A stretch of 61,935 nt of DNA, filler included, from Dirinaria sp. TL-2023a (Eukaryota): NCBI GenBank assembly GCA_051941275.1. It is 15 parts of 15 records of this genome, joined end to end, with 100 filler letters (N's around TTAATTAATTAA, not from the genome) between each part and the next. Parts side by side here need not be neighbours in the genome. Positions count along the whole stretch, not along the records: positions 20,797 to 24,841 come from JAVEBF010001917.1; 14 more parts are not named here. One strand, given 5' to 3'. The notes under the pieces were generated by a model that was given only the letters and a program-made list of their open reading frames with translations, was not told where the DNA came from and did no database searches. The translations under genes and the position numbers were made by a program. Shown here piece by piece: positions 12,610 through 57,360 of this stretch (position 1 is the stretch's first letter; each line of letters opens with the position of its first letter).

Positions 12610-13764
12610 TCACTGCATGAATTCTTCATCCCTTTCGGCGCTTTTTGGTCGTATTGGAAGTGTCGCTACTGAATAAGTTAACGATTAGACTGCGGTCATT
12701 GTAACGTTAGACATACTCGTCGAGTTGTCCTGAGAATGCGCACTGCCATCGCCAGCCTCGCCCTTCTCAGTCAAGGCTTGTCCAGATTCGGACTCGGGGG
12801 CTACCTCCACTCCGCCATCATCACTACTGGTGTCCTCGCCGTGGGACCAGCTACAATTTGCGTCGTCTTCTTCCCCTGAGCCACCACATGTCAGTACTAT
12901 CTCGTTTAGATTGAGTTCAATGAGGTGGTCACACCTTTGTCTTCCGACTCTGGCCAGATCATGCGCTCCAGATCCTCCACTGCCATCCTCTTAACATTTT
13001 CGAAAAAGAACTTTCTGTTCTTATACTGGCTTTCAAATTCCTGCCACACTCCTGCTTTAAGCCTGCAGGCGGCGATGTAATTAACCGCCTGCTCTCGCTT
13101 GATGTCCTCTCGATCCATCTTCCCAGCTTTCGCTGGCAGCTCTTTGTGGGTCAGAGCTTTGTTCAGCCAACCAAGCCGCTTCCTTGGAATTCCACCGTAA
13201 TTAGGCAGTGCGACAGTGTCGCTAAGCAGACGTCTCTCCGCTTTACGACGGGTACCCAATTCTTTTAAACGCACTGGAGCATAAGCGGGCACTTGTCAGC
13301 TAAGAGCTATAGAGTTTGGGGCGCGTGAGCTTCGGGCGCCACTCACTTCCTGTTTTGCGAACCACCCGTGCTTCTAGCTCCGCGATAATGAACGCACGAT
13401 GTTCCCCCTCTAACTCTTCAAATTTGTCTCCGACCTCAGCAATCTCACGCCATTTGATGTGTTCGCCGTCCTTCTCTAAACCCGCTTTAGCTCTCGCCAC
13501 CATAATTTGCTCAATACCTCGGCGGCGTTTGATATCGTCGTCTCGGTAAGCTTGTTCCGTGGTAAAGTCGCGCTTTTTGAGTCCGAATAAAGCACGAAGC
13601 ATCTTCCCGTGGCTGTTGCCAAATTTCACTTTCTGGGATCTGATTGTAGCGAACAGAAGCTTGTTCTCCAACGAACGCCTCATTCCCTCCTTCGAGCGCG
13701 GAAGAGTCTTAGGTGTGTTCAAGATGATGGAGCGCGCGCCTGATACGTGCTCTGTATCCATCAT
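12610..13764 (-). CDS. Orphan hypothetical protein, multi-exon (true start uncertain)
   Basis: ORFs 13764-13300 and 13292-12906 are joined in frame by an intron 13346-13274 (GTGAGT..GCTGAC..CAG: KTG-M-RLKELGT). Two further GT-AG introns lead through an acidic exon (GEEDDANCSWSHGEDTSSDD..) to TGA at 12610. Confidence 0.6.
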
Positions 13765-14879: not shown

Positions 14880-15870
14880 AAGAAAATCTAGCAACTTGGC
14901 AGTCGCCGTGAAGCCGAAAACCGCTTTCTTAGCGACACCATAGCCCTCCCGAACCACGATGGGATCCCACGGTAACTAACTGGCTAGCTCGCTCGTTTTC
15001 CCGCAGCAGCTTGCAAGAGACAGTCACCGTAAAGCGGAGAGACGTCTTTTCAGCGACACGATGGGGCTGCCAAACCACGGCGGAATTCCAAGGAAACGGT
15101 TTGACTGGCTTCATAAAGCATTGACGCACAGAGAGCTGCCAGGGAAACCTGAAAAGATACAATGAGATTCCATCATAAGAGAGCATCTTGCAAGAGACAG
15201 TCACCGTAAAGCGGAGAGACGTCTTTTCAGCGACACGATAGCGCTGCCAAACCACGGCGGCATTCCAAGGAAACGGTTTGGCTGGCTTCATAAAGCATTG
15301 ACGCACAAAGAGCGCGCAACCAGACCCTCAACGATAGAGCGACAGAATGTGATGAGGGATCAAGCAGTAAACTACATCGCTGCCTGTAGGCGTCAAGCCG
15401 GAGTCTGGAACGAGTTTGAAGTCGGGGGGAAAGACTGGAACATAGATTTCTAAGAAATCAAGAGAATATAAGATGTTGAGTTTGAGCTAGAAATCAGGCA
15501 GGAGATCACATCGCTGTCTGTAGACGTCAAGCGGGAGTCTGGAAAGAGTTTGAAGTCGGGGGGAAAAACTGTAACATAAATTTCTAACAAATCAAGAGAA
15601 TATAAGATGCTGAGTTTGAGCTAGAAATCAGGCAGGAGATTACAACGCTGCCTGTAAGCGTCAAGCGGAAGTCTGAAAAGAGTTCGAAGCCGTGGGAGAA
15701 CCCAGGAATAAAAGACGAAATAATGAATTGACAGATCATAAGAGATCAGACAGTGAACTACATCGCTGCCTGTAGACGTCAAGCAGAAATCTGAAAAGAA
15801 TTCGAAGCCGTGGGAAAACCTATATATAACAAAAAACGAAATGACGAATTGACAGATCATCATCAGAGAT
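14880..15870 (+). pseudogene. Degenerate inverted paralog of the 12610-13764 gene with internally repeated modules
   Basis: The plus strand reads HRKAERRLFSDTMGLPNHGGIPRKRFDWLHKALTH (twice, 177-nt period, plus a more decayed copy at ~14900) and DQAVNYIAACRRQAGVWNEFE (about 4 copies, 15366-15870). These match RRKAERRLLSDTVALPNYGGIPRKRLGWLNKALTH and EQAVNYIAACRLKAGVWQEFE of the minus-strand gene; in-frame TAG/TGA/TAA stops are present. Confidence 0.85.
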
Positions 15871-20381: not shown

Positions 20382-20796
20382 AGCCAAGGGTTTAGACCAT
20401 GACACGCAGTTCTCAAGTTAAAACAACGCATTTCACAAAGACAGATCCCAGTATTATGCTCTCGCCACAAGAAGGGGGAAGCAACGATATGTTACTCTGA
20501 CTTATCAAACCCCTCAACAATACCCCATCAAAAAAAAGCCAGGACGGAGAGACCTCTCCAAATGCACACAGTAACAGTGCCAATACCCCTATCCTTCTCC
20601 CAGCCAGCCAACTCTGAACCCAATACTACTGGTCTCGCAATCTCACCAGCTTGCTCGACACCAGACCTCATAAACCTCTCTTCTCCTCTTACGCAGNNNN
20701 NNNNNNNNNNNNNNNNNNNNNNNNNNNNNNNNNNNNNNNNTTAATTAATTAANNNNNNNNNNNNNNNNNNNNNNNNNNNNNNNNNNNNNNNNNNNN

Positions 20797-21687
20797 AAGC
20801 TGGGGTAGCAATGATCCGGTAACCAAAATAGAGGCGAACTGTGCCAGCGACAACACAGCTTCAATCGATGGTTAGCTGACTGATCTTCCAAGTATGGACG
20901 TACGTCGTAATTACAGTATGCCAAGCCAAAAAATGCCGATCAAGATGAACTTTCGTCGCCTGGTTGTTTGCAGATTTCGTATGACCGGCAGCGGTAAAGA
21001 CAGTGTGATAATGTCTAGCACGACATCCATTGCCGCAAACGCCGTCAGAAATGCGCCGTAATTGAGATCAGCGCGAGGCCGAGGCTTAAACCATTTGGAG
21101 ATCGGCCATGCTGAGAATATTTGCCCCTGTAGAGGTTAGCAATACTTAGTGAAGCTTGATATTCCTACTGACGATTGTCGCAGCTATCATCCACATAACA
21201 ACAATAGCCATTGTGACTTTTGCCGCAAGATGAAACTTTTGTATTGGGAAAGCCCGCTTGTAAAGAGCAATTACCCCCAGCTTCACTGTGCCTTCTGCAA
21301 CATGGAACAAGATGAGTGAACAGTAAAAGAACTGGAACGCGAGTAAGTAGTACGGACGGCTGCTATGTTGATATCAACATACCTTATGATAGGAGGAGTA
21401 TTTTGCGGGCGTCAATGTCGTTATTTTCTGACCTAATCCTGCCGTACACGCCGCATAAAGGATCAGACCACAATAGACGATTGAAAGGAACTGGCAACTG
21501 TGTGAGTTACAAAAAGTCTTGACGTGCGTCCATCGCCTACCAAAGCAGCCATGATAATGTAGTCATCGATGCCGAGAGGTATTGATTTGGTCTTGCGTGC
21601 CAATACGCGCAGCAGGACTGCTAATGAAGCAAGAAAAGCGAAGATCACACTGCACACCGCAGTAGCATTGGCATAAGAGGAATACAT
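20797..21687 (-). CDS. PTH11-like / rhodopsin-domain integral membrane protein, multi-exon, 3' truncated
   Basis: LAVLLRVLARKTK..PLGIDDYIIMAAL; KLGVIALYKRAF; WPISKWF; AAMDVVLDIITLSLPLPVIRNLQTTRRRKFILIGIFWLG; GT-AG introns. Confidence 0.85.
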
Positions 21688-23489
21688 GGTCAGGGTTTGG
21701 ACTCGACGTCAACTCTGAAAAGAGACACCCGAATAGCGGAAGTACAATTGGGGCAAACATAAAGTTGACATGGCGAATCTGAGGCCCTGGAGTCCCGTTC
21801 AGAATCTGAACAATCGTCAAGGCCTTTTTCGACTAATACCGAAGGAAATCGGAACAAAAATGCTACGCAGTTGAAGCATCTCGGCCTTCGAGAAAGGCAC
21901 ACATACTCAACAGCTCTGGCTGAGAAATACGCCGATTATATCTGTTTGACGCTAAGCCCGAATTCAGCCCATCCTCAGGAAGGTAAGACTGCAGGCCGTC
22001 AGCCGGAACAGGAAGGATTGTCGGAATAACGAGGATAGCAAAAAACGACTCGCACGCGCAAATTGCCTGTGTCTAAGCTCTGTACCACAGCGATGCAGGA
22101 AGACTCTGGTCATGCTCGCGAAGAGGCAAGCATCAGTGAAGTAGCGATGCGCAGCTCAGGCGATGTGTGGGCCATCAAATGGTCATGATCGGAGTGGAAA
22201 TGGGGTTTTTGATTTGGGTGTGCCTCGTACAGTCCCTCTTCCGCTCGGAGGCTGAGAGGCCGAAGCTTTGGCGGCCTGAGCATTACGTACGTTCGCCATC
22301 AGAAGGAATGCGATCATCGAGTCGTCCAGTCAGCGAAGTCTGGACATCCAGGTAGCAAAAGCTGACAAGGAATCCTGACCAATAGGATGAGCTCAGCAGT
22401 CTTTAAAGTAAGGAAGCTCGGCCAATCGAGCGTTGAATGCTGGAGGAAGCGAGCGGTAAGCGTAATCTGACATGATGCGCGTATAAATAAGCTGACATTA
22501 ATTTTGTCGCTGGGGCCATTTTATACGGTTGCATTGCCGTCTTCACAGCTGAATGTGCATATATGCATTTTAGTGCCCGGGCGGCATTTCTGTTCGTACG
22601 AGTTTGTCTTGGTACAATTCTTATTCCCAAGTAAACTTGCCGATAAACGTTTCTCATGAAATACTAAGCTTTATGTAATGTTCTTTAGGCCGCTGCGCTT
22701 CATTTCTTGCATAGATGTAACGTTTTGCAAGGTTGTGACGACGAGATTTTGCCAGCACTGAACGCTGATATTCAGCCTTCTTCATTGGATCATCCTTTAA
22801 GGCGGTAGCTGAGGAAGGCCGCTATGTCTAGATTTCGCTTTGCTTTTCTGAGTTCGACGCGCTCGTGCACTGTTCCCTACGCCTTTGATAGTGTGCCTTA
22901 CACCTCATGTTAAGGAACGAGGCTGAATCAAATACCATGGAGATCATCTTGACAAGCATTCGTCGAAGCACAAAAACTTCTATAAGCCAATGCGAGCATA
23001 TGGCATTGTGCAACGCCGTTTCTCATAGTTTCCATGTTACTCTAGGAAGTCTTTGAACGGAGGCAAACATGTAATGTTTTGATTAGACCTTGATTTGTAG
23101 AGGTAGGGTTGTGTCATCGACATCATGATATTGATGGGAGTGTAGATGTAGCGCGTCGGCTGGCGGGACATGTTGCCTTATCCACCATGCGTCACCGATT
23201 CCAGTGCTGAAAGCTGAAATGGAGCTGGTGTAGTATCCTCAGGGAATGAAAGAACCCTAGTTTTAAAGTTATACCACCAGCAGACGCTTGGTGAAGCCCT
23301 TGGGTAGACTGGTAGCTACACGTCATGCTGTGCAAATTCTGTCAGTAGGGACCGTTCGAATGCATTGAAGTATGTCCGCGATTCGTGGTGAAGTAATTCG
23401 AATGATCGAGTTGGTTGACGAGGAGAGAGAGCAGCCTGGTGTAGGAGATTCACAGTCAACAAAGAAAATTAAACTATATATATAGTAAT

Positions 23490-23745
23490 AGGGGCCGCTT
23501 TCCGTAACCCGCGCAGTAGGCGTATGTGGGCGATTGGCCGAATGGTTACAAGTCCATCCACAGTAAATCGCAGAAACTACCCGAGAGGGTCCGGGTTCGA
23601 GTCCGGTAAGCCTCCACTTTCGTGGAGCCAAGTACTAAGCCTCCCTGCGCCCAAAGCAAAAAGCGAGGGGTACTAGAAAAGACTACGAGTCTTTCCTATA
23701 GCTTAGGAACCTTAGAAACCCCCGAGGTCTCTAGGCTTCCAAGTG
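23490..23745 (+). mobile_element. Highly structured non-coding element: candidate SINE or non-LTR retroelement 5' end with HDV-like ribozyme module and tRNA-like A/B boxes
   Basis: GTAACC(23504-09)/GGTTAC(23544-49) pairing with CCGAA just before the 3' strand; A-box-like TGGCCGAATGG (23535) and B-box GGTTCGAGTCC (23594). Consecutive hairpins ACCC-GAGA-GGGT, CCGGG-TTCGAG-TCCGG, CTCCAC-TTTC-GTGGAG, AAAGACT-ACG-AGTCTTT and TAGAAACC-CCCGA-GGTCTCTA. Confidence 0.5.
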
Positions 23746-24941
23746 ACTGTTTTGTCATTTGGATTTCTGGATAGGGCTGAGACTGCGGTGATGTGTGATG
23801 ATCTTTCATACTAGCGTAAAATGAGAAGGTTCTAAGTTCCACATAATTTCCCACATCCAAAATTGCTTACTTCATGAGACGTCCTGGGTTTCATTTGCAT
23901 CAACCACTTTCATAAGGTAGGGCTTGTAATGTCCAGAGAATACTTAAAGCTACCTTACCATAACCTCCTCGAACCTGAGCGATAACACCATGGCGTACGA
24001 CATATCCGAACGTCATCAGCGATGTTCTAGGCTTAGCTCGTCCAGCACACGATAACGTGTCTGGAACCGATTTACTGAAAGAGCGGTCAGGTCTTCATGA
24101 AGTGTCCCAGGCAAGCGAGGGCGTATTGACTCGAGGATACGGAGACGATTGTTTCAAAAAGGGTCCTGCAAATTTTTCCAGGTCGCTCGTTTTCTTGACG
24201 GTCCTAATCGCACTAGATTCCATGTGAAACGGGAAATCAGACAGGTCCTCAGATAACGGCTGAATTATACAATTCGATATCAGGTCATCACCAAGCACTC
24301 GTGCAGGTGGGAGGGAAGATTATGCGTACGTGTGCGAGCGTATGCTAGGCTAGATAGTGGTAAGCATCCTTCGGAGCGGATCACACCACTCGAAAAGGAA
24401 CCGACTCCTCTCTCTCTTTCTCATTGGGCACAGTCCTTTCACAGGACAAGATGTCAGAGGCGCAATCGCTTATTTTCGGCGCTGCGTCCTCCACGGTTGG
24501 TCTGACGACTATTGCACCAACATCTTGCAATTCTCAGCTCCAGCCCTTAAGAGGGATTCTTGAATCGTCCTCGCTGAGCTGCCAGTGGTAGAACCGGGTG
24601 TAATATGCTCATACAACCGACCAATAGCTCGGTAAGTGTGGGGCGCTAGTTACAATCTTTCGTCGCCGGAATACTCTTTGGCAAGTATCTTCGAATGCAG
24701 CCATGCTAGCATAAAACAATCCGGAAGAGCGTAAAGCGAGAGACTTGGCTTATTTATTCAAGCTTGCCGACGAGAGACTCGCCACGGCTGACATGAATTG
24801 TCCACCAAGCTCCAATCTTCGTGCATCGAAGTGGTATGAGANNNNNNNNNNNNNNNNNNNNNNNNNNNNNNNNNNNNNNNNNNNNTTAATTAATTAANNN
24901 NNNNNNNNNNNNNNNNNNNNNNNNNNNNNNNNNNNNNNNNN

Positions 24942-45505: not shown

Positions 45506-46793
45506 NNNNNNNNNNNNNNNNNNNNNNNNNNNNNNNNNNNNNNNNNNNNTTAATTAATTAANNNNNNNNNNNNNNNNNNNNNNNNNNNNNNNNNNNNNNN
45601 NNNNNTTTCGAGTTTATGTTTCAAAGCTATACAAAATTATACTTGGGCAAGGAGTAGTCTGCAGAAAGAGGGCCGTATTTGCCTTTCCGGTTTGAAAAAT
45701 TCCTTCATATGCACACCTCGCTCAACTTAAATCCGTTGAGTGGCGACTTTAGCTCACCGCGCACGGGAATGTGCTCAAACGCTAAGATTTCTCACCTTTT
45801 TTGCTTCTCCTCTGGTGTAGTATACTAAATTACTCGACCCTTTCATTCTTTGTAAGCTTTTCCTGTCGACTTCTTTAGGCCCCTGAAGATATCTACGAAT
45901 TTATTTGCTTAAGTCCTGAGCTGAGGACGCAACTATATCATGAATATTTTTCGAATCTTGTCTTAGTTCAACTCGTATAATATAATTGTGTGCCTAGCAG
46001 ACAACGCGAAGAATGCCTATTAACATTCCACGTTTCAAAACTTCACTGTTGGACCACTATGGCTCACCTAAACCGATGCGCCTACCCCTTCTCCTGTCAT
46101 CATAAGCTGGGACCAAATACGCAGCTCCTTCTCCGAGATTCCAATGGGGGAGGATATTGGAATCTTGCCCTAACTTTGATAAAGTGTACGCTCGAACCGT
46201 GTTTAAGGATTTCAGGAATTTCAGTCATTCATGTCTCAACGGTACAGTTGGAAAGTACCCTACGCAACGTTGCCATTTGGAATCGCGTCCGACAATATCT
46301 TAGCATGTAAGAAAATGTCACAGGGCATTCAACTATCGAAGGGCCTGTTCCATTATCTCCAGTAGTAAGAAGAATGAGATGGTCGCATTTGTCGAGGGAG
46401 GGACTGATCAATTCAACCCCATCTTCAACGAAGATAAAGCGTACTGACTCCAAGAAGACAAGAACCATGTGCTCATACTATCGTCAGTAAAAGCTGTCTT
46501 AGAAGACATAGCAAAACTAAGACTAGACGAGGCAGCTGTTCGACTTCAATGATCAAACTATGCTCAGAAGTGAAAAGTCTTTCTTTGTTTAACTTGAAGA
46601 CTTTCTTCCCGGTTAAGTTATAAGTCTTCTTTCTTACATGTTCAATTATTGCACGTACAATATAGGTGAAATCCGATTACTTCCAAACTTATCATATGAA
46701 TAGTGTTAGCGTTTTGTCTTAACGACTAGAAGACAATTGTTTCTACGAGCTTCTGGGGAGTTGTACGAATCGGAAGAAAATGGACGGAATCTT

Positions 46794-47226
46794 TGAGCTC
46801 GGACTCTCTTCTCTCACTCACTCCTGTGATCAGTTCTGGAGTTCGAGTTCGAATTCTCTTGTCTCACTGACTTCTATGATTAGTTTCGGATTTCGAGTTC
46901 GGATCTTCTTGTCTCACTGACTTTCATGATTAGTTTCGAATTTCGAGTTCGAATCATCTTCTCTCACTGACTTCTATGATTAGTTTCGGGGCTTAAGTTC
47001 GAATCCTCTACTCTCGCTCACTACTATGCCGAGTTCTAGAGCCCAAGTTCGAGCTCGAATCTTTCGCTCAGTCCCATGATTAGCTCTGGAGTCCGAGTTC
47101 GAATTCTCTACTCTCGCTCTTTCTTATGATTAGTTCCGGAGTAGTACTTCGAGCCCTCTTCTCTCGCCCACTCTGCTGATTAGCTCCGGAGTCCAACTTC
47201 GAAGCATCTTCTCTCACTCATTCTGC
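46794..47226. repeat. Minisatellite, 50-bp period, ~9 diverged copies
   Basis: The CTCTCRCTSA-like core recurs exactly every 50 nt (46811, 46861, 46911, 46961, 47011, 47061, 47111, 47161, 47211); consensus approx. CGAGTTCGAATYCTCTTCTCTCACTSACTTCTATGATTAGTTYCGGAGTY. Confidence 0.9.
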
Positions 47227-51910: not shown

Positions 51911-52588
51911 AGATGCACTTGAGACACGTAGTATTTCAATTGAGGACGTAGCTCAAAGTGTATGGGATAGAAACCAGAAGATTGGGGACACAGAGTATGT
52001 CAAGTGAGGCGGATTTCTGGAAATGTGGAGATAACTGAATGTAGGCAAGATTCTTGATATGCAGTGGGCAAGTTGGGACGTTTTGCAGATGCGCAGCACC
52101 AGTTGATGGATATGAGTGATTAAAGATTTGGGTGAGGAGGTCAAGTGTTCGTGGGTGGGAGAAGAGGGGTTTAAATAGTACCTTACTTGGTGGTCCCAAC
52201 AATAGGCTCACTAGCCCGGTAACGGGGGCTGGTGATATTGAGGAACCATTGTTCTTTCTGAGTGAATGATTCAGAGGAAATTCAGTGAATCACTGATAAG
52301 GTGCTCCGTACGGTAAGTCTGTTTTTCAAGGTTGCCTGCTTCGCCTTAACAAACCCCCTGCAGCACTAATGCTTGCTTACTTAAGGTAGGCAGTAGGCAC
52401 AGGATAATTGAGCCTTTGTCGATCTCCCGATGAAGGAGCAAACCCGAATCGATCGCGCTTAAGGTACCTAGCCTTTCCGGACACGGGCAGGGTTAAGGCA
52501 GGGTTCAGGTCCACCACAGCAAGCAGTTACCTTAACAGCTTTTCAGCTCTCACACGCATATTCCATACCTTACCGTACTTGTTGAACC

Positions 52589-54807: not shown

Positions 54808-55830
54808 TTACCATCTCGACTCACAGTCGCTGTCATGATCATGACAATGGCAACGATGGCTGTGGCGACAGCTCGAGGAAGAAGAAGAGCGGTCAATCAC
54901 GACAATGGTTGTCGTACTAGGGGGAGCAGACTTCCGCTTGTTCTCCATCCGCTCGATCTGATTCTCCAATTTCAACAGTTCCATCTTGGCTTCCAACTTA
55001 TCAACTTTCTTCTCCAGTTGCGCTTGAGTGGCAGAAGAACCAGCGCGGGTAGTGCGAGTAACAGGGTAATTTTCCGCGCGAGCGCGAGAAGCATGGCTCT
55101 CAAAGCGCTGCAGTTGGTTGTCGCGTGCGTCCCCACGAGTAGGAGCCTGGCTGTAGTTGTTTTCTCCGCGAGTGGCCCGAGTCGGAGCCCGGCTTTCTTC
55201 ATGATAATTATCACGAGTAGTTCGAGTTGGAGCCCGGCTTTCTTGATAATTATCACGAGTAGTCCGAGTTGGCGCCCGGCTATCCGATTCACGTGCCCTG
55301 GACGGTTGGTAGTACCCGTTATCTCCAGCACCAACAGAATTACGATGAGAAGTGCCACGAGTAACAGTTGAAGCGTGACTATCCCTACCGCGCGAAACCC
55401 TGCTTTCATGCACCCGACTAGAGCCCGACGGACGCACTGTCTGTCGTGACTGCTCGTCGTAGTGCGGAGCCCGAGACGAAGATGCACGCGGCGTGAGAGT
55501 CCTATCTTCCGGAACAGCAGACAAGCGGCTCTCACGACGGCTCTCGAAATGGCTCGGGGCACGAGACGATGATTCACGCCTCACGATTACCGCCATGTCC
55601 TGCGGAACGGCGGAGAGCCGGCTCTCAGCCCGAGTCCGAGTAATCTCACGTGGTACAAGCGCATTACGGCTGGATGGGGCCACCGAGTGCTGCGCATACT
55701 CTCCAGAACGGGTGGCACGGGAGGCACCTTCTTCCCATTCCTTTGAGCTACCGGAGCTGACGGCTTGAGATTGTTGACGCGAGATGGAGGCCGAGGAGGG
55801 GCGGGTGATGTTTTCGGAGCGAGTAGGCAT
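54808..55830 (-). CDS. Ser/Arg/Thr-rich repetitive hypothetical protein with coiled coil and Cys/His-rich C-terminus
   Basis: Long ORF (probable start MPTRSENIT at 55830; frame open to 56112); repeats ESRLSAVP x2 and SRAPTR.TR.NY x3; LEKKVDKLEAKMELLKLENQIER; end SCRHSHRCHCHDHDSDCESRW. Confidence 0.7.
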   Translation of the reverse strand: MPTRSENITRPSSASISRQQSQAVSSGSSKEWEEGASRATRSGEYAQHSVAPSSRNALVPREITRTRAESRLSAVPQDMAVIVRRESSSRAPSHFESRRESRLSAVPEDRTLTPRASSSRAPHYDEQSRQTVRPSGSSRVHESRVSRGRDSHASTVTRGTSHRNSVGAGDNGYYQPSRARESDSRAPTRTTRDNYQESRAPTRTTRDNYHEESRAPTRATRGENNYSQAPTRGDARDNQLQRFESHASRARAENYPVTRTTRAGSSATQAQLEKKVDKLEAKMELLKLENQIERMENKRKSAPPSTTTIVVIDRSSSSSSCRHSHRCHCHDHDSDCESRW

Positions 55831-57360
55831 GACTTTTCCTTCTTGTGCCGGAAAGGTTGAAACTGTGTCTTTGAATTTGTTGGTTGGAAGTTGGAAGTTG
55901 GAAGGTGTTTTTGAAAGTCTGACTTCTTTTGTTTTCTGAGATTTGAGATTAAGAAAACGCTTCCTGAAACGTTTTGAGTTCTGAAGATTGTTGAGGCGAT
56001 GCTGGAGAGCGGAAGTAGGATTGTGGGAAGGGTTGATTATATACTCATTAGTTGATGAGCTAGTGTTCGAAGCCCAGGTATACAAATCCATTGTTTGTAT
56101 AAAGAGAAACAAAGGGAGACAGTGTTGCTCATATTTGTCGCAACGCTGAAAGACATGAAGGAGAACATTACAAAGGTATTATTCGATATCGCCTGGATGT
56201 AGTCCTTTGTTTCTCCTTTATGCTGGCTCAAAGACCATTCACAATTCTGTGCGGAATAGACGTGCGATTTCTTTGTCTCTATCCAGCCGGTCATGATGTG
56301 TACCGATCATTTCCAAATTGACTTTGACAAATGGAAAAAGACACCAAAAAAAAAAGAAATCTCCTTACGACTCGATTCTACCACTCCCCGAGTCTTGCCT
56401 CATACCAGCCCCGAAAAAATACACCATCTCACCTAAAAACTCCTGCGTTCTAGAGAACCCGTCAATTATTCACATCTGACATCTAGATCTCCCAATACTT
56501 CGAGTTCGTTCTCAATCCAATCTAAGTCATCCCACGTACACACACACACATTATTCGCAATAAGAAAGAGACTTCTCACGTTGATAGAAAAGAGAAATTT
56601 TGCTCCATTCCTAAAGTAAGCTATTATCAGCAGAAAATGAGCATTATTCCCTCGTTCTAACAAAGATCGACCACAATAACAACAATAACAACAACAACAA
56701 AGGAAGAAAGCACGTTCTCCCTTTTAGTAACAGAATGTCGGTGTGCCAAGAATGTGTACTCGCAGAGTACATCATTCTTAGCAGTAAACAGGTGAAGGTA
56801 CTCGTAGAAGAAATGCTGGTAGAAAAACGATTAAAAGAGGGTGACGATATGGGAGGATGGACAGTCAAGGGTATGATAAGGGAGAATTTTGAAGGTATCA
56901 GGAACGAAATCGCAAGGTGAGAATATACAATCATACTGAGTGGTGAAGGTAGCTTACCTTATAAAAGTACAACATCAGATATGTTCGTTAGATACAGCCG
57001 CGATCGCGTATTTTTGCGCTAGCAGCCCTATAGGGCTCGCTTCGAGGATAGGAGATATCTGACGGAAGGTGACGGAATTTCTTCATGTACGTTGGATGAT
57101 AACATGCAGCTCTTAAGAAATCAATCTCATATCAAACAGGTGCTAAGCGCCGTTAAGAATGATACATATTTCCATCGCCGATCTCGCCACCACAAGGCTG
57201 TATACTACTAGTCCGTAGTGACAACCATTCTTAGTGTTTTTTTCCTTTGGGATCTGGCACTTCTGAAACGAAGAAAGCTCTAAAAATCCTTGAACTACGA
57301 TGTCAGCTTTTCTGCATCTTTACCTTACCTCCTCAGAGTTACCCGGTTGGAATCTGCGAG

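What the first reader, a model, noticed from the sequence alone, without database searches (positions are those of the whole stretch)
23528..23745. Dense hairpin array with Pol III A/B-box-like motifs - candidate new SINE or structured ncRNA
Seen: within ~200 nt, at least six stems (ACCC-GAGA-GGGT GNRA loop; CCGGG/TCCGG; CTCCAC/GTGGAG; CCCT.CGC/GCG.AGGG; AAAGACT/AGTCTTT; TAGAAACC/GGTCTCTA). A longer-range CTAAGC (23635)/GCTTAG (23701) pair would close a three-way junction. TGGCCGAATGG and GGTTCGAGTCC resemble A and B boxes, but no valid cloverleaf forms, and no gag/RT ORF follows. Inference: a non-autonomous retroelement or solo LINE 5' UTR carrying a large RNA structure fused to the ribozyme-like module. 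This is the most novel-looking signal in the window.
Basis: partly seen in the sequence, partly recalled or inferred. Interest (0 to 1): 0.7.

Follow-up and report, generated by a model that had tools for sequence, protein, structure and literature searches.

The report
tRNA-like promoter head plus hairpin block
In a lichen-type fungal contig, a broken tRNA look-alike that keeps RNA polymerase III promoter boxes sits directly in front of an unusually hairpin-rich 150-base block; it resembles a small Pol III gene or SINE, but neither could be proven.

Summary
All the listed stems exist. TGGCCGAATGG (23535-45) and GGTTCGAGTCC (23594-604) lie 59 nt apart, as A and B boxes do in a long-variable-arm tRNA. 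ARAGORN and Rfam find no tRNA, ribozyme or other family there.

The tRNA-like head (23528-23612) folds no better than shuffles. A sharply bounded block (23632-23766) has z -4.1 on the + strand and -5.4 on the - strand. It ranks 2nd of 3358 windows and its flanks are ordinary. The pairing is almost strand-symmetric.

A rare TATATATATA (23475-84) lies 51 nt upstream of the A box. The first T4 (23750-53) sits at the end of the block.

SINE hallmarks fail or could not be tested:
- no target-site duplication beyond chance;
- no A-rich or repeat tail;
- no second copy in 62 kb;
- no RT/gag anywhere in the window.

No genome, sequencing run or related DNA could be obtained, so copy number, expression and conservation remain open.

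Best reading (about 0.35): an in-place, tRNA-derived Pol III unit of the leader type (as in RPR1, SNR52 and the Yarrowia tRNA-RUF70 genes). Rivals are a SINE copy, a dead tRNA gene beside unrelated palindromes, and a UTR or DNA-level palindrome cluster. Interest is modest.

The parts
23475..23484 (+). TATATATATA stretch, 51 nt upstream of the A box. This is the position expected for TFIIIB/TBP if transcription starts about 18-20 nt before the A box (that geometry is recalled).
   Evidence: TATATATA occurs at only 2 loci in the window (0.26 matches expected); 16 matches to TATAWAWR counting both strands (9.86 expected); by my reading of the table they fall at about 12 distinct places.
23528..23612 (+). 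Degenerate head resembling a tRNA with a long variable arm. The acceptor, D and anticodon stems are broken. It acts, or once acted, as promoter/leader and not as a tRNA.
   Evidence: ARAGORN 'possible pseudogene' only at the 50% threshold; no tRNA called; fold z -0.03 on +, -0.75 on -.
23535..23545 (+). A-box-like TGGCCGAATGG.
23579..23590 (+). ACCC-GAGA-GGGT hairpin at the position of a long variable arm.
23594..23604 (+). B-box GGTTCGAGTCC, inside a CCGG/CCGG stem with an 8-nt loop.
   Evidence: the only match in the window.
23612..23627 (.). Hairpin CTCCAC-TTTC-GTGGAG. Its 5' arm overlaps the first of two TAAGCCTCC direct repeats (23607-15 and 23636-44).
23632..23706 (.). Two hairpins (23643-69 and 23674-98). 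They can be closed by CTAAGC/GCTTAG into a three-way junction, or stacked as separate hairpins through GTACT/GGTAC.
23700..23737 (.). Long imperfect hairpin (GGAAC CTTAGA ACC ... GGT TCTAGG CTTCC).
23738..23763 (.). Hairpin TCCAAGTGAC-TGTTTT-GTCATTTGGA. Its loop holds the first T4 run on the + strand after the head (23750-53).
23632..23766 (.). Core hairpin block: the statistically exceptional part, sharply bounded by ordinary flanks.

Best explanation
This is a tRNA-derived RNA polymerase III transcription unit that sits in place and is not a retroposed copy.

An ~85-nt leader descended from a long-variable-arm (Ser/Leu-type) tRNA has lost the cloverleaf but keeps the A and B boxes.

Inferred mechanism, by analogy to yeast Pol III genes:
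1. TFIIIC binds the two boxes.
2. TFIIIC places TFIIIB/TBP on the TATATATATA stretch about 30-40 nt upstream of a start near 23515.
3. Pol III transcribes the leader and the directly attached ~150-nt body of five short hairpins.
4. Transcription stops, probably inefficiently, at the T4 in the loop of the last hairpin. The product would be about 240 nt.
5. The leader may be cut off, as in RPR1.

Shown here: the motifs, their spacing, the absence of a tRNA fold, the discrete hairpin block, and the missing retroposon hallmarks.

Inferred only: transcription, its strand, processing, and any function.
For: - Three promoter-type elements lie in canonical order and spacing on one strand: a rare TATA stretch at 23475-84, the A box at 23535-45 and the only B box in 62 kb at 23594-604.
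- The A-to-B distance of 59 nt fits a tRNA with a long variable arm, and a 4-bp GNRA hairpin sits where that arm belongs.
- The boxes are intact (11/11 and 10/11 against the usual consensus) while the cloverleaf stems are broken. The leaders of snR52, RPR1 and Zod1 are described the same way: regular A and B elements that cannot be drawn as a tRNA (PMC2566860, passages).
- The most strongly folding block of the window starts within a few bases of the head's end. Inference: this adjacency to the window's only B box is unlikely to be a coincidence, so head and body are one unit.
- There is no T4 on the + strand between the head and the end of the block.
- An upstream TATA is not carried by retroposed copies. 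No target-site duplication or tail is present, yet the hairpins are still about 90% Watson-Crick: 47 of 52 predicted pairs. An old, decayed SINE copy should have lost its hairpins too.
- Precedents for tRNA-type leaders driving a promoterless downstream RNA in fungi: the 84-nt RPR1 leader, and Yarrowia tRNA-5S and tRNA-Trp-RUF70 (PMC2566860). [quoted passage not shown]
Against: - There is no evidence of transcription and none of conservation. No relative was found anywhere.
- T4 is below the reported yeast minimum of T5-T6 (PMC5095917). The next run, T5, is at 24173.
- The block folds at least as well on the - strand: -54.8 against -47.1 kcal/mol, with 57 pairs including 7 G-U against 52 pairs including 5 G-U. 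The pairing therefore looks like DNA palindromes and gives no sign of selection on a + strand RNA.
- Strings of short, near-perfect hairpins are not typical of known functional Pol III RNAs.
- The A/B boxes are the very features by which the locus was noticed, which is an ascertainment bias.
- The TATA stretch could equally serve a Pol II promoter.
- U2, a real structured RNA in the same window, scores only z -0.6 in the same test. Folding energy is a weak guide in either direction.
Confidence: 0.35

Rival explanations
1. A retroposed copy of a tRNA-derived SINE. The head supplies the internal Pol III promoter. The hairpin body and tail would be recognised by a partner LINE reverse transcriptase.
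For: - Head + tRNA-unrelated body + total size of about 240 nt match the definition of a tRNA-related SINE.
- Low-copy elements of 140-493 bp of this kind have been named in Aspergillus fumigatus (PMC5063351, abstract and Table 1).
- Stem-loops in SINE tails are known recognition elements. This point is recalled; the abstract of PMC5135761 was seen only in the listing.
Against: - No target-site duplication beyond chance (414 of 500 shuffles reach the same 6-mer).
- No A-rich or simple-repeat tail.
- Single copy in 62 kb.
- No RT or endonuclease ORF in the window.
- 0 hits for two element-specific words in JGI metagenomes.
- A well-placed upstream TATA is not expected for a random insertion.
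- The element was assembled through in the middle of a 4-kb contig (inference: it is not a high-copy, high-identity repeat).
Confidence: 0.2
2. A dead, in-place Ser/Leu-type tRNA gene that keeps its boxes by chance. Next to it lies an unrelated cluster of short palindromes made by local duplication or template-switch errors, or by a small inserted element.
For: - All four cloverleaf stems are damaged.
- A TATA-like stretch upstream fits a former real tRNA gene.
- The 9-nt direct repeat TAAGCCTCC (23607-15 and 23636-44) brackets a 20-nt piece that creates the first hairpin. This looks like a local duplication or inversion.
- The pairing is strand-symmetric, as for DNA-level palindromes.
Against: - Under neutral decay the boxes should be hit as often as the stems, yet they match 21 of 22 positions.
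- The adjacency of the window's only B box and its top-ranked folding block would have to be a coincidence.
- No T run directly follows the tRNA-like 3' end; only TTT is there.
Confidence: 0.2
3. The hairpin block has nothing to do with Pol III. It is either a structured part of a Pol II transcript (for example a UTR, possibly on the - strand) or a fragment of a DNA transposon (a MITE or a Helitron end with hairpin + CTAG) that landed beside a tRNA relic.
For: - The - strand gives the lower energy and the stronger z (-5.37).
- The - strand carries T4 and T5 runs inside the block, so a - strand RNA would have to be made by Pol II (sequence).
- On the - strand one hairpin ends in CTAG followed by T (23672-98), which is the form of a Helitron 3' end (recalled).
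- A paper title and abstract report Helitron enrichment in lichenised fungi (PMC13535494, listing only).
Against: - No recognisable gene lies next to the block. No Pfam hit was found in 21750-24841.
- There are no terminal inverted repeats or target-site duplications around the block.
- Only 1 of the 4 CTAG contexts (two CTAG sites read on both strands) fits the A|T rule, which is chance level.
- No Helitron or transposase domain is present in the window.
Confidence: 0.15
4. Chance. This is the most extreme of several thousand windows, picked by eye, next to a fortuitous pair of motifs.
For: - Some window must rank first.
- Another region (52172, + strand) ranks above it at 135 nt.
- The 228-nt runner-up is only about 0.5 sd away.
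Against: - Shuffle z of -5.4 and -4.1 with ordinary flanks.
- Joint A/B-box expectation of about 3e-4 per window.
- The variable-arm hairpin and the TATA stretch are both in the right places.
Confidence: 0.1

Closest known systems
Leader-type Pol III genes of yeasts (RPR1, SNR52, ZOD1) and Yarrowia lipolytica dicistronic tRNA-5S and tRNA-Trp-RUF70 genes (PMC2566860, passages; PMC5095917, passages)
   Same: A and B boxes lie in a 5' leader of about 85 nt that need not fold as a tRNA. The RNA of interest lies directly downstream and has no promoter of its own. The host is a fungus.
   Different: No transcript, processing site or conserved product is known here. The terminator is only T4. The downstream RNA matches no Rfam family. 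The Yarrowia leaders are real tRNAs, and this head is not.
tRNA-derived SINEs, including the fungal examples AfuSINE2 (PMC5063351, abstract and Table 1) and Mg-SINE and Foxy (names seen only as search terms, otherwise recalled)
   Same: A tRNA-related head with A/B boxes, an attached tRNA-unrelated body, and a size in the 140-493 bp range reported for AfuSINE2.
   Different: No target-site duplication, no tail, no second copy seen, and no partner LINE seen. By eye, none of the AfuSINE2 sequences printed in Table 1 resembles this head; no alignment was run.
MHV68 TMERs (tRNA-miRNA-encoded RNAs; PMC4838037, passage)
   Same: Pol III units of 200-250 nt made of a tRNA-like element followed by tandem hairpins.
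   Different: TMERs are viral, carry two pre-miRNA hairpins and are processed by tRNase Z and Dicer. The stems here are about 5-13 bp, too short for Dicer substrates (the length requirement is recalled).
Ordinary eukaryotic Ser/Leu (class II) tRNA gene or pseudogene
   Same: D-loop-like TGGCCGAATGGTTA, a long variable-arm hairpin, the T-loop box GGTTCGAGTCC and the correct spacing.
   Different: The acceptor has 2 mismatches in 8 pairs, the anticodon stem is largely unpaired with no T33, and the T arm is 4 bp with an 8-nt loop. It scores as no tRNA in ARAGORN or Rfam.

Membership tests
tRNA gene | Cloverleaf accepted by a tRNA finder or covariance model | tested here: not met
   ARAGORN finds 0 genes at default settings, with or without introns. 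Rfam gives no tRNA match at E<=10 even on 111 nt. Only a 'possible pseudogene' appears at the 50% threshold.
tRNA gene | A and B box at tRNA spacing | tested here: met
   23535-45 and 23594-604, 59 nt from start to start.
tRNA-derived SINE | tRNA-related head with an internal Pol III promoter plus a tRNA-unrelated body | tested here: met
tRNA-derived SINE | Flanking target-site duplication | tested here: not met
   the longest shared word is 6 nt (ATAGGG, 23488 and 23771), and 414 of 500 shuffles do as well.
tRNA-derived SINE | A-rich, simple-repeat or LINE-derived 3' tail | tested here: not met
   there is no A run or repeat at the 3' end. LINE similarity could not be tested, because no LINE is present in the window.
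tRNA-derived SINE | Multiple dispersed copies in the genome | not testable with these tools
   No genome is held. The element is single-copy in 62 kb, which excludes only very high copy numbers. No sequencing run was listed.
Leader-type Pol III gene (RPR1/SNR52-like) | A and B boxes in a 5' leader upstream of the mature RNA, with a TFIIIB site upstream | tested here: met
   Motif level only; factor binding was not tested.
Leader-type Pol III gene (RPR1/SNR52-like) | Oligo-T terminator adequate for a fungal Pol III | tested here: inconclusive
   T4 at 23750-53 and the next T5 at 24173. The reported yeast minimum is T5-T6 (PMC5095917). The requirement in Lecanoromycetes is unknown.
Leader-type Pol III gene (RPR1/SNR52-like) | A stable transcript and a conserved downstream RNA | not testable with these tools
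   No runs were listed. Two metagenome scans gave 0 hits. The downstream part matches no Rfam family.
Known ribozymes and other Rfam families | A covariance-model match | tested here: not met
   the best match is RT-8, 19.3 bits against a gathering score of 87.
LINE 5' UTR / non-LTR retrotransposon | An adjacent gag/RT/endonuclease coding region | tested here: not met
   No ORF of 200 aa or more in the contig. No such Pfam family in the 34 contig ORFs scanned or in the 40 long window ORFs scanned.

The most novel reading that the evidence does not exclude
The locus is a functional, lineage-specific Pol III gene of lichen-forming fungi. A non-tRNA leader with TATA, A and B elements drives a new five-hairpin RNA of about 150 nt that is released from the leader, in the manner of RPR1, SNR52 or Yarrowia RUF70. 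It would be a new fungal small-RNA family of unknown role.
Probability: 0.15. Interest if true: 0.55.

Novelty: new member of a known kind. Interest (0 to 1): 0.3.

Why it matters
If this is a working Pol III unit, it would add a further fungal case of a tRNA-derived leader driving a promoterless small RNA. It would also be a first candidate of that kind in lichen-forming fungi, whose non-coding RNAs and SINEs are, as far as I recall, little described. My two literature searches were not designed to establish that and were read as listings only.

If it is a SINE, it would be a lead to a retroposon family in that group.

If it is a dead tRNA gene beside palindromes, it is ordinary.

As it stands the locus is a well-defined lead and nothing more. 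One BLAST against the full assembly and one RNA-seq track would settle most of it.

Tried and rejected
- Whole-genome search: no genome is held for this window.
A second call failed on a format rule.
- Two JGI metagenome scans, with a 22-mer at the head-body junction and a 20-mer at the A box: 0 loci each.
- Prokaryote genome scan with an 18-mer of the D-loop region: 11 loci, about my estimate of the chance number. 0 of the 11 hold a tRNA, so the head does not come from a known prokaryotic tRNA.
- Looking for relatives through spurious ORFs:
  - The 67-aa + strand ORF gave no scoring candidate.
  - The 103-aa - strand ORF against 1.84 billion representatives gave 6 hits at E<=0.001. The best hit was aligned and three of the six were read; those three are long bacterial-looking repeat proteins, two of them cadherin-like. 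The best hit matches the same weak stretch (about 33% identity) many times, so I rejected the hits as summed chance.
- Full-text search for the D-loop string: 0 papers.
- Rfam at a permissive threshold on three sub-ranges: only matches with E>=0.31, far below gathering scores.
- Considered and rejected from the sequence:
  - hammerhead or other ribozyme core in the three-way junction;
  - H/ACA or C/D snoRNA on either strand (no proper H/ACA or C/D box arrangement);
  - RNase P or SRP RNA;
  - a nuclear copy of mitochondrial DNA (52% G+C; the expectation that fungal mitochondrial DNA is AT-rich is recalled);
  - a MITE bounded by ATGTGGGCGATT/AATTTCCCACAT (I3; no target-site duplication);
  - an intron reading GTATGT...TACTAAG...TAG (no flanking coding exon).
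- The bacterial promoter/terminator scan found nothing and does not apply to a eukaryote.

Full report
**Setting**

The window is not one stretch of chromosome. It is 15 contigs of about 4.0 kb joined by 100-nt spacers (44 N, TTAATTAATTAA, 44 N), ordered by falling length. The finding lies in contig 20797-24841.

The organism is a eukaryote. A U2 snRNA gene sits in another contig (134.5 bits). It is an ascomycete: two exons of a fungal-rhodopsin-domain gene lie at 20911-21373 on the - strand. A THOC7 ORF from another contig finds its best named relatives only in lichen-forming Lecanoromycetes, at 67% identity or less; unnamed relatives reach 88%.

The other contigs carry ordinary housekeeping genes: cyclin, RPL5, Arf, elongin A, pirin and NIPA. 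None has a reverse transcriptase or transposase domain (40 of the 66 ORFs of 110 aa or more). In the finding's own contig nothing from about 21750 to 24841 matches Pfam (34 of the 40 ORFs of 50 aa or more were scanned).

**The observation**

One further hairpin was missed, at 23738-23763.

TGGCCGAATGG (23535-45) fits a loosened A-box consensus. GGTTCGAGTCC (23594-604) is the only match to GGTTCGANNCC in 62 kb. From the two background rates, both on one strand at tRNA spacing is expected about 3e-4 times per window. That is my arithmetic, with the caveat that the A-box consensus was relaxed after the fact.

Counting the A box as tRNA positions 8-18, position 1 falls on 23528. The ACCC-GAGA-GGGT hairpin then sits where the long variable arm of a class II tRNA belongs, and the T-loop box follows directly. 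So the head is tRNA-derived. The D-loop string looks closest to eukaryotic Ser tRNAs, but that comparison is from recall.

It is not a tRNA:
- the acceptor has 2 mismatches in 8 pairs;
- the anticodon stem is largely unpaired and there is no T33;
- the T arm is 4 bp with an 8-nt loop;
- ARAGORN, with or without introns, and Rfam call nothing.

**Where the signal really is**

| Segment | Strand | z against shuffles | Rank among genomic windows |
|---|---|---|---|
| Head 23528-23612 | + / - | -0.03 / -0.75 | - |
| Core block 23632-23766 | + | -4.07 | 12th of 3358 |
| Core block 23632-23766 | - | -5.37 | 2nd of 3358 |
| Upstream flank 23400-23527 | + / - | +0.64 / -1.02 | - |
| Downstream flank 23767-23900 | + / - | +1.51 / +0.87 | - |

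The 228-nt window at 23557 (-) ranks 1st of 2870.

Two cautions apply. Something must rank first: a region at 52172 (+) outranks the block at 135 nt, and the 228-nt runner-up is only about 0.5 sd behind. And U2, a true structured RNA, scores only z -0.6 in this test.

The predicted pairing is nearly strand-symmetric. The + strand has 52 pairs with 5 G-U, and the - strand has 57 pairs with 7 G-U. The block therefore behaves as a run of DNA palindromes, and the strand of any RNA cannot be read from it.

**Context elements**

A TATATATATA stretch at 23475-84 is one of only two TATATATA loci in the window. It lies 51 nt before the A box. If Pol III starts about 18-20 nt before the A box, as in yeast tRNA genes (recalled), the stretch lies about 30-40 nt upstream of the start, where TFIIIB/TBP binds.

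On the + strand there is no T4 from the head to 23750-53, which is the loop of the last hairpin. The next run, T5, is at 24173. T4 is reported as sufficient in human, but T5-T6 is the reported minimum in yeast (PMC5095917, passages).

**Tests of the SINE reading**

- The flanks share nothing longer than a 6-mer, and 414 of 500 shuffles reach that.
- There is no A-rich or repeat tail.
- blastn finds no second copy in the window. The best other hits are 10-15 nt at E>=3.5.
- No LINE-type ORF exists in the window.
- Copy number in the genome could not be tested.
- One copy in 62 kb excludes only thousands of copies. This assumes a genome of about 35 Mb, a size I recall.
- The element was assembled through in mid-contig, which argues mildly against a high-copy repeat.

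**Comparative evidence**

None could be obtained. The full list of searches is under Tried and rejected.

**Weighing**

Head and block are probably one unit, because the window's only B box abuts its best-folding block.

A young SINE copy should still show its duplication and tail. An old one should have lost its hairpins, yet 47 of 52 predicted + strand pairs are Watson-Crick. An upstream TATA is not carried along by retroposition.

Intact boxes in a leader that no longer folds as a tRNA, with a promoterless RNA directly downstream, are how the leaders of RPR1, snR52 and Zod1 are described. The Yarrowia tRNA-5S and tRNA-Trp-RUF70 genes work in a similar way (PMC2566860, passages). I therefore rank an in-place, leader-type Pol III unit first, at about 0.35.

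The points against it are real: the weak terminator, the strand-symmetric palindromes, no known family, and no expression or conservation data.

The rivals are:
- a SINE copy (0.2);
- a dead tRNA gene next to palindromes made by local duplication or template switching (0.2). The TAAGCCTCC direct repeat at 23607 and 23636 that builds the first hairpin hints at this;
- a Pol II UTR or transposon-fragment origin for the block (0.15);
- chance (0.1).

**Comparison and novelty**

In mechanism the locus resembles leader-type Pol III genes and tRNA-derived SINEs. Viral TMERs have the same tRNA-like-plus-hairpins layout (PMC4838037, passage), but their hairpins are pre-miRNA hairpins, while the stems here are only about 5-13 bp.

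It fails the membership tests for a tRNA gene, and for a retroposed SINE on two of four features, with the fourth untestable. It meets only the motif-level features of a leader-type gene.

It is best filed as a possible new member of a known kind, a tRNA-derived Pol III unit. Interest is modest until a genome-wide BLAST and an RNA track exist.

Noticed in passing
window 1-61935; spacers such as 20697-20796 and 24842-24941: The window is a chain of 15 contigs of about 4.0 kb, ordered by falling length. They are joined by 100-nt spacers made of 44 N, TTAATTAATTAA and 44 N. Long-range 'repeats' at a spacing of about 4.1 kb are these spacers.
   Followed up: yes
32821-33026 (+): A full-length U2 snRNA gene (134.5 bits, E 3e-27), followed by a long T run.
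   Followed up: partly
52172-52306 (+): The best-folding 135-nt window of the whole 62 kb after G+C correction, about 300 nt upstream of the THOC7 ORF. For 52140-52340 the shuffle z is -2.74. No sequence similarity to the finding.
   Followed up: partly
46746-47218: A tandem array with a 50-nt period: 7 overlapping 173-nt register copies at 66-100% identity.
   Followed up: no
13090-13247 / 15028-15185 and 15005-15844: A 158-nt inverted repeat (77% complementary, 1.8 kb apart), next to tandem repeats of 134 and 177 nt. No Pfam hit in the ORFs there.
   Followed up: no
33177-35822 (-): Adjacent ORFs with patatin, NB-ARC and TPR matches. This is the layout of a fungal NLR-like protein.
   Followed up: no
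55153-55281: Three 42-45-nt direct repeats inside the 456-aa ORF 54811-56178 (-), which has no Pfam match.
   Followed up: no
21750-24841: About 3 kb around the finding has no ORF of 200 aa or more and no Pfam match in any of the ORFs tested. That is long for a compact fungal genome.
   Followed up: partly
23607-23615 and 23636-23644: An exact 9-nt direct repeat, TAAGCCTCC. The first copy is the tRNA-like 3' acceptor strand and the second opens the three-way junction. The 20 nt between them complete the first hairpin, which suggests a local duplication or inversion event.
   Followed up: partly
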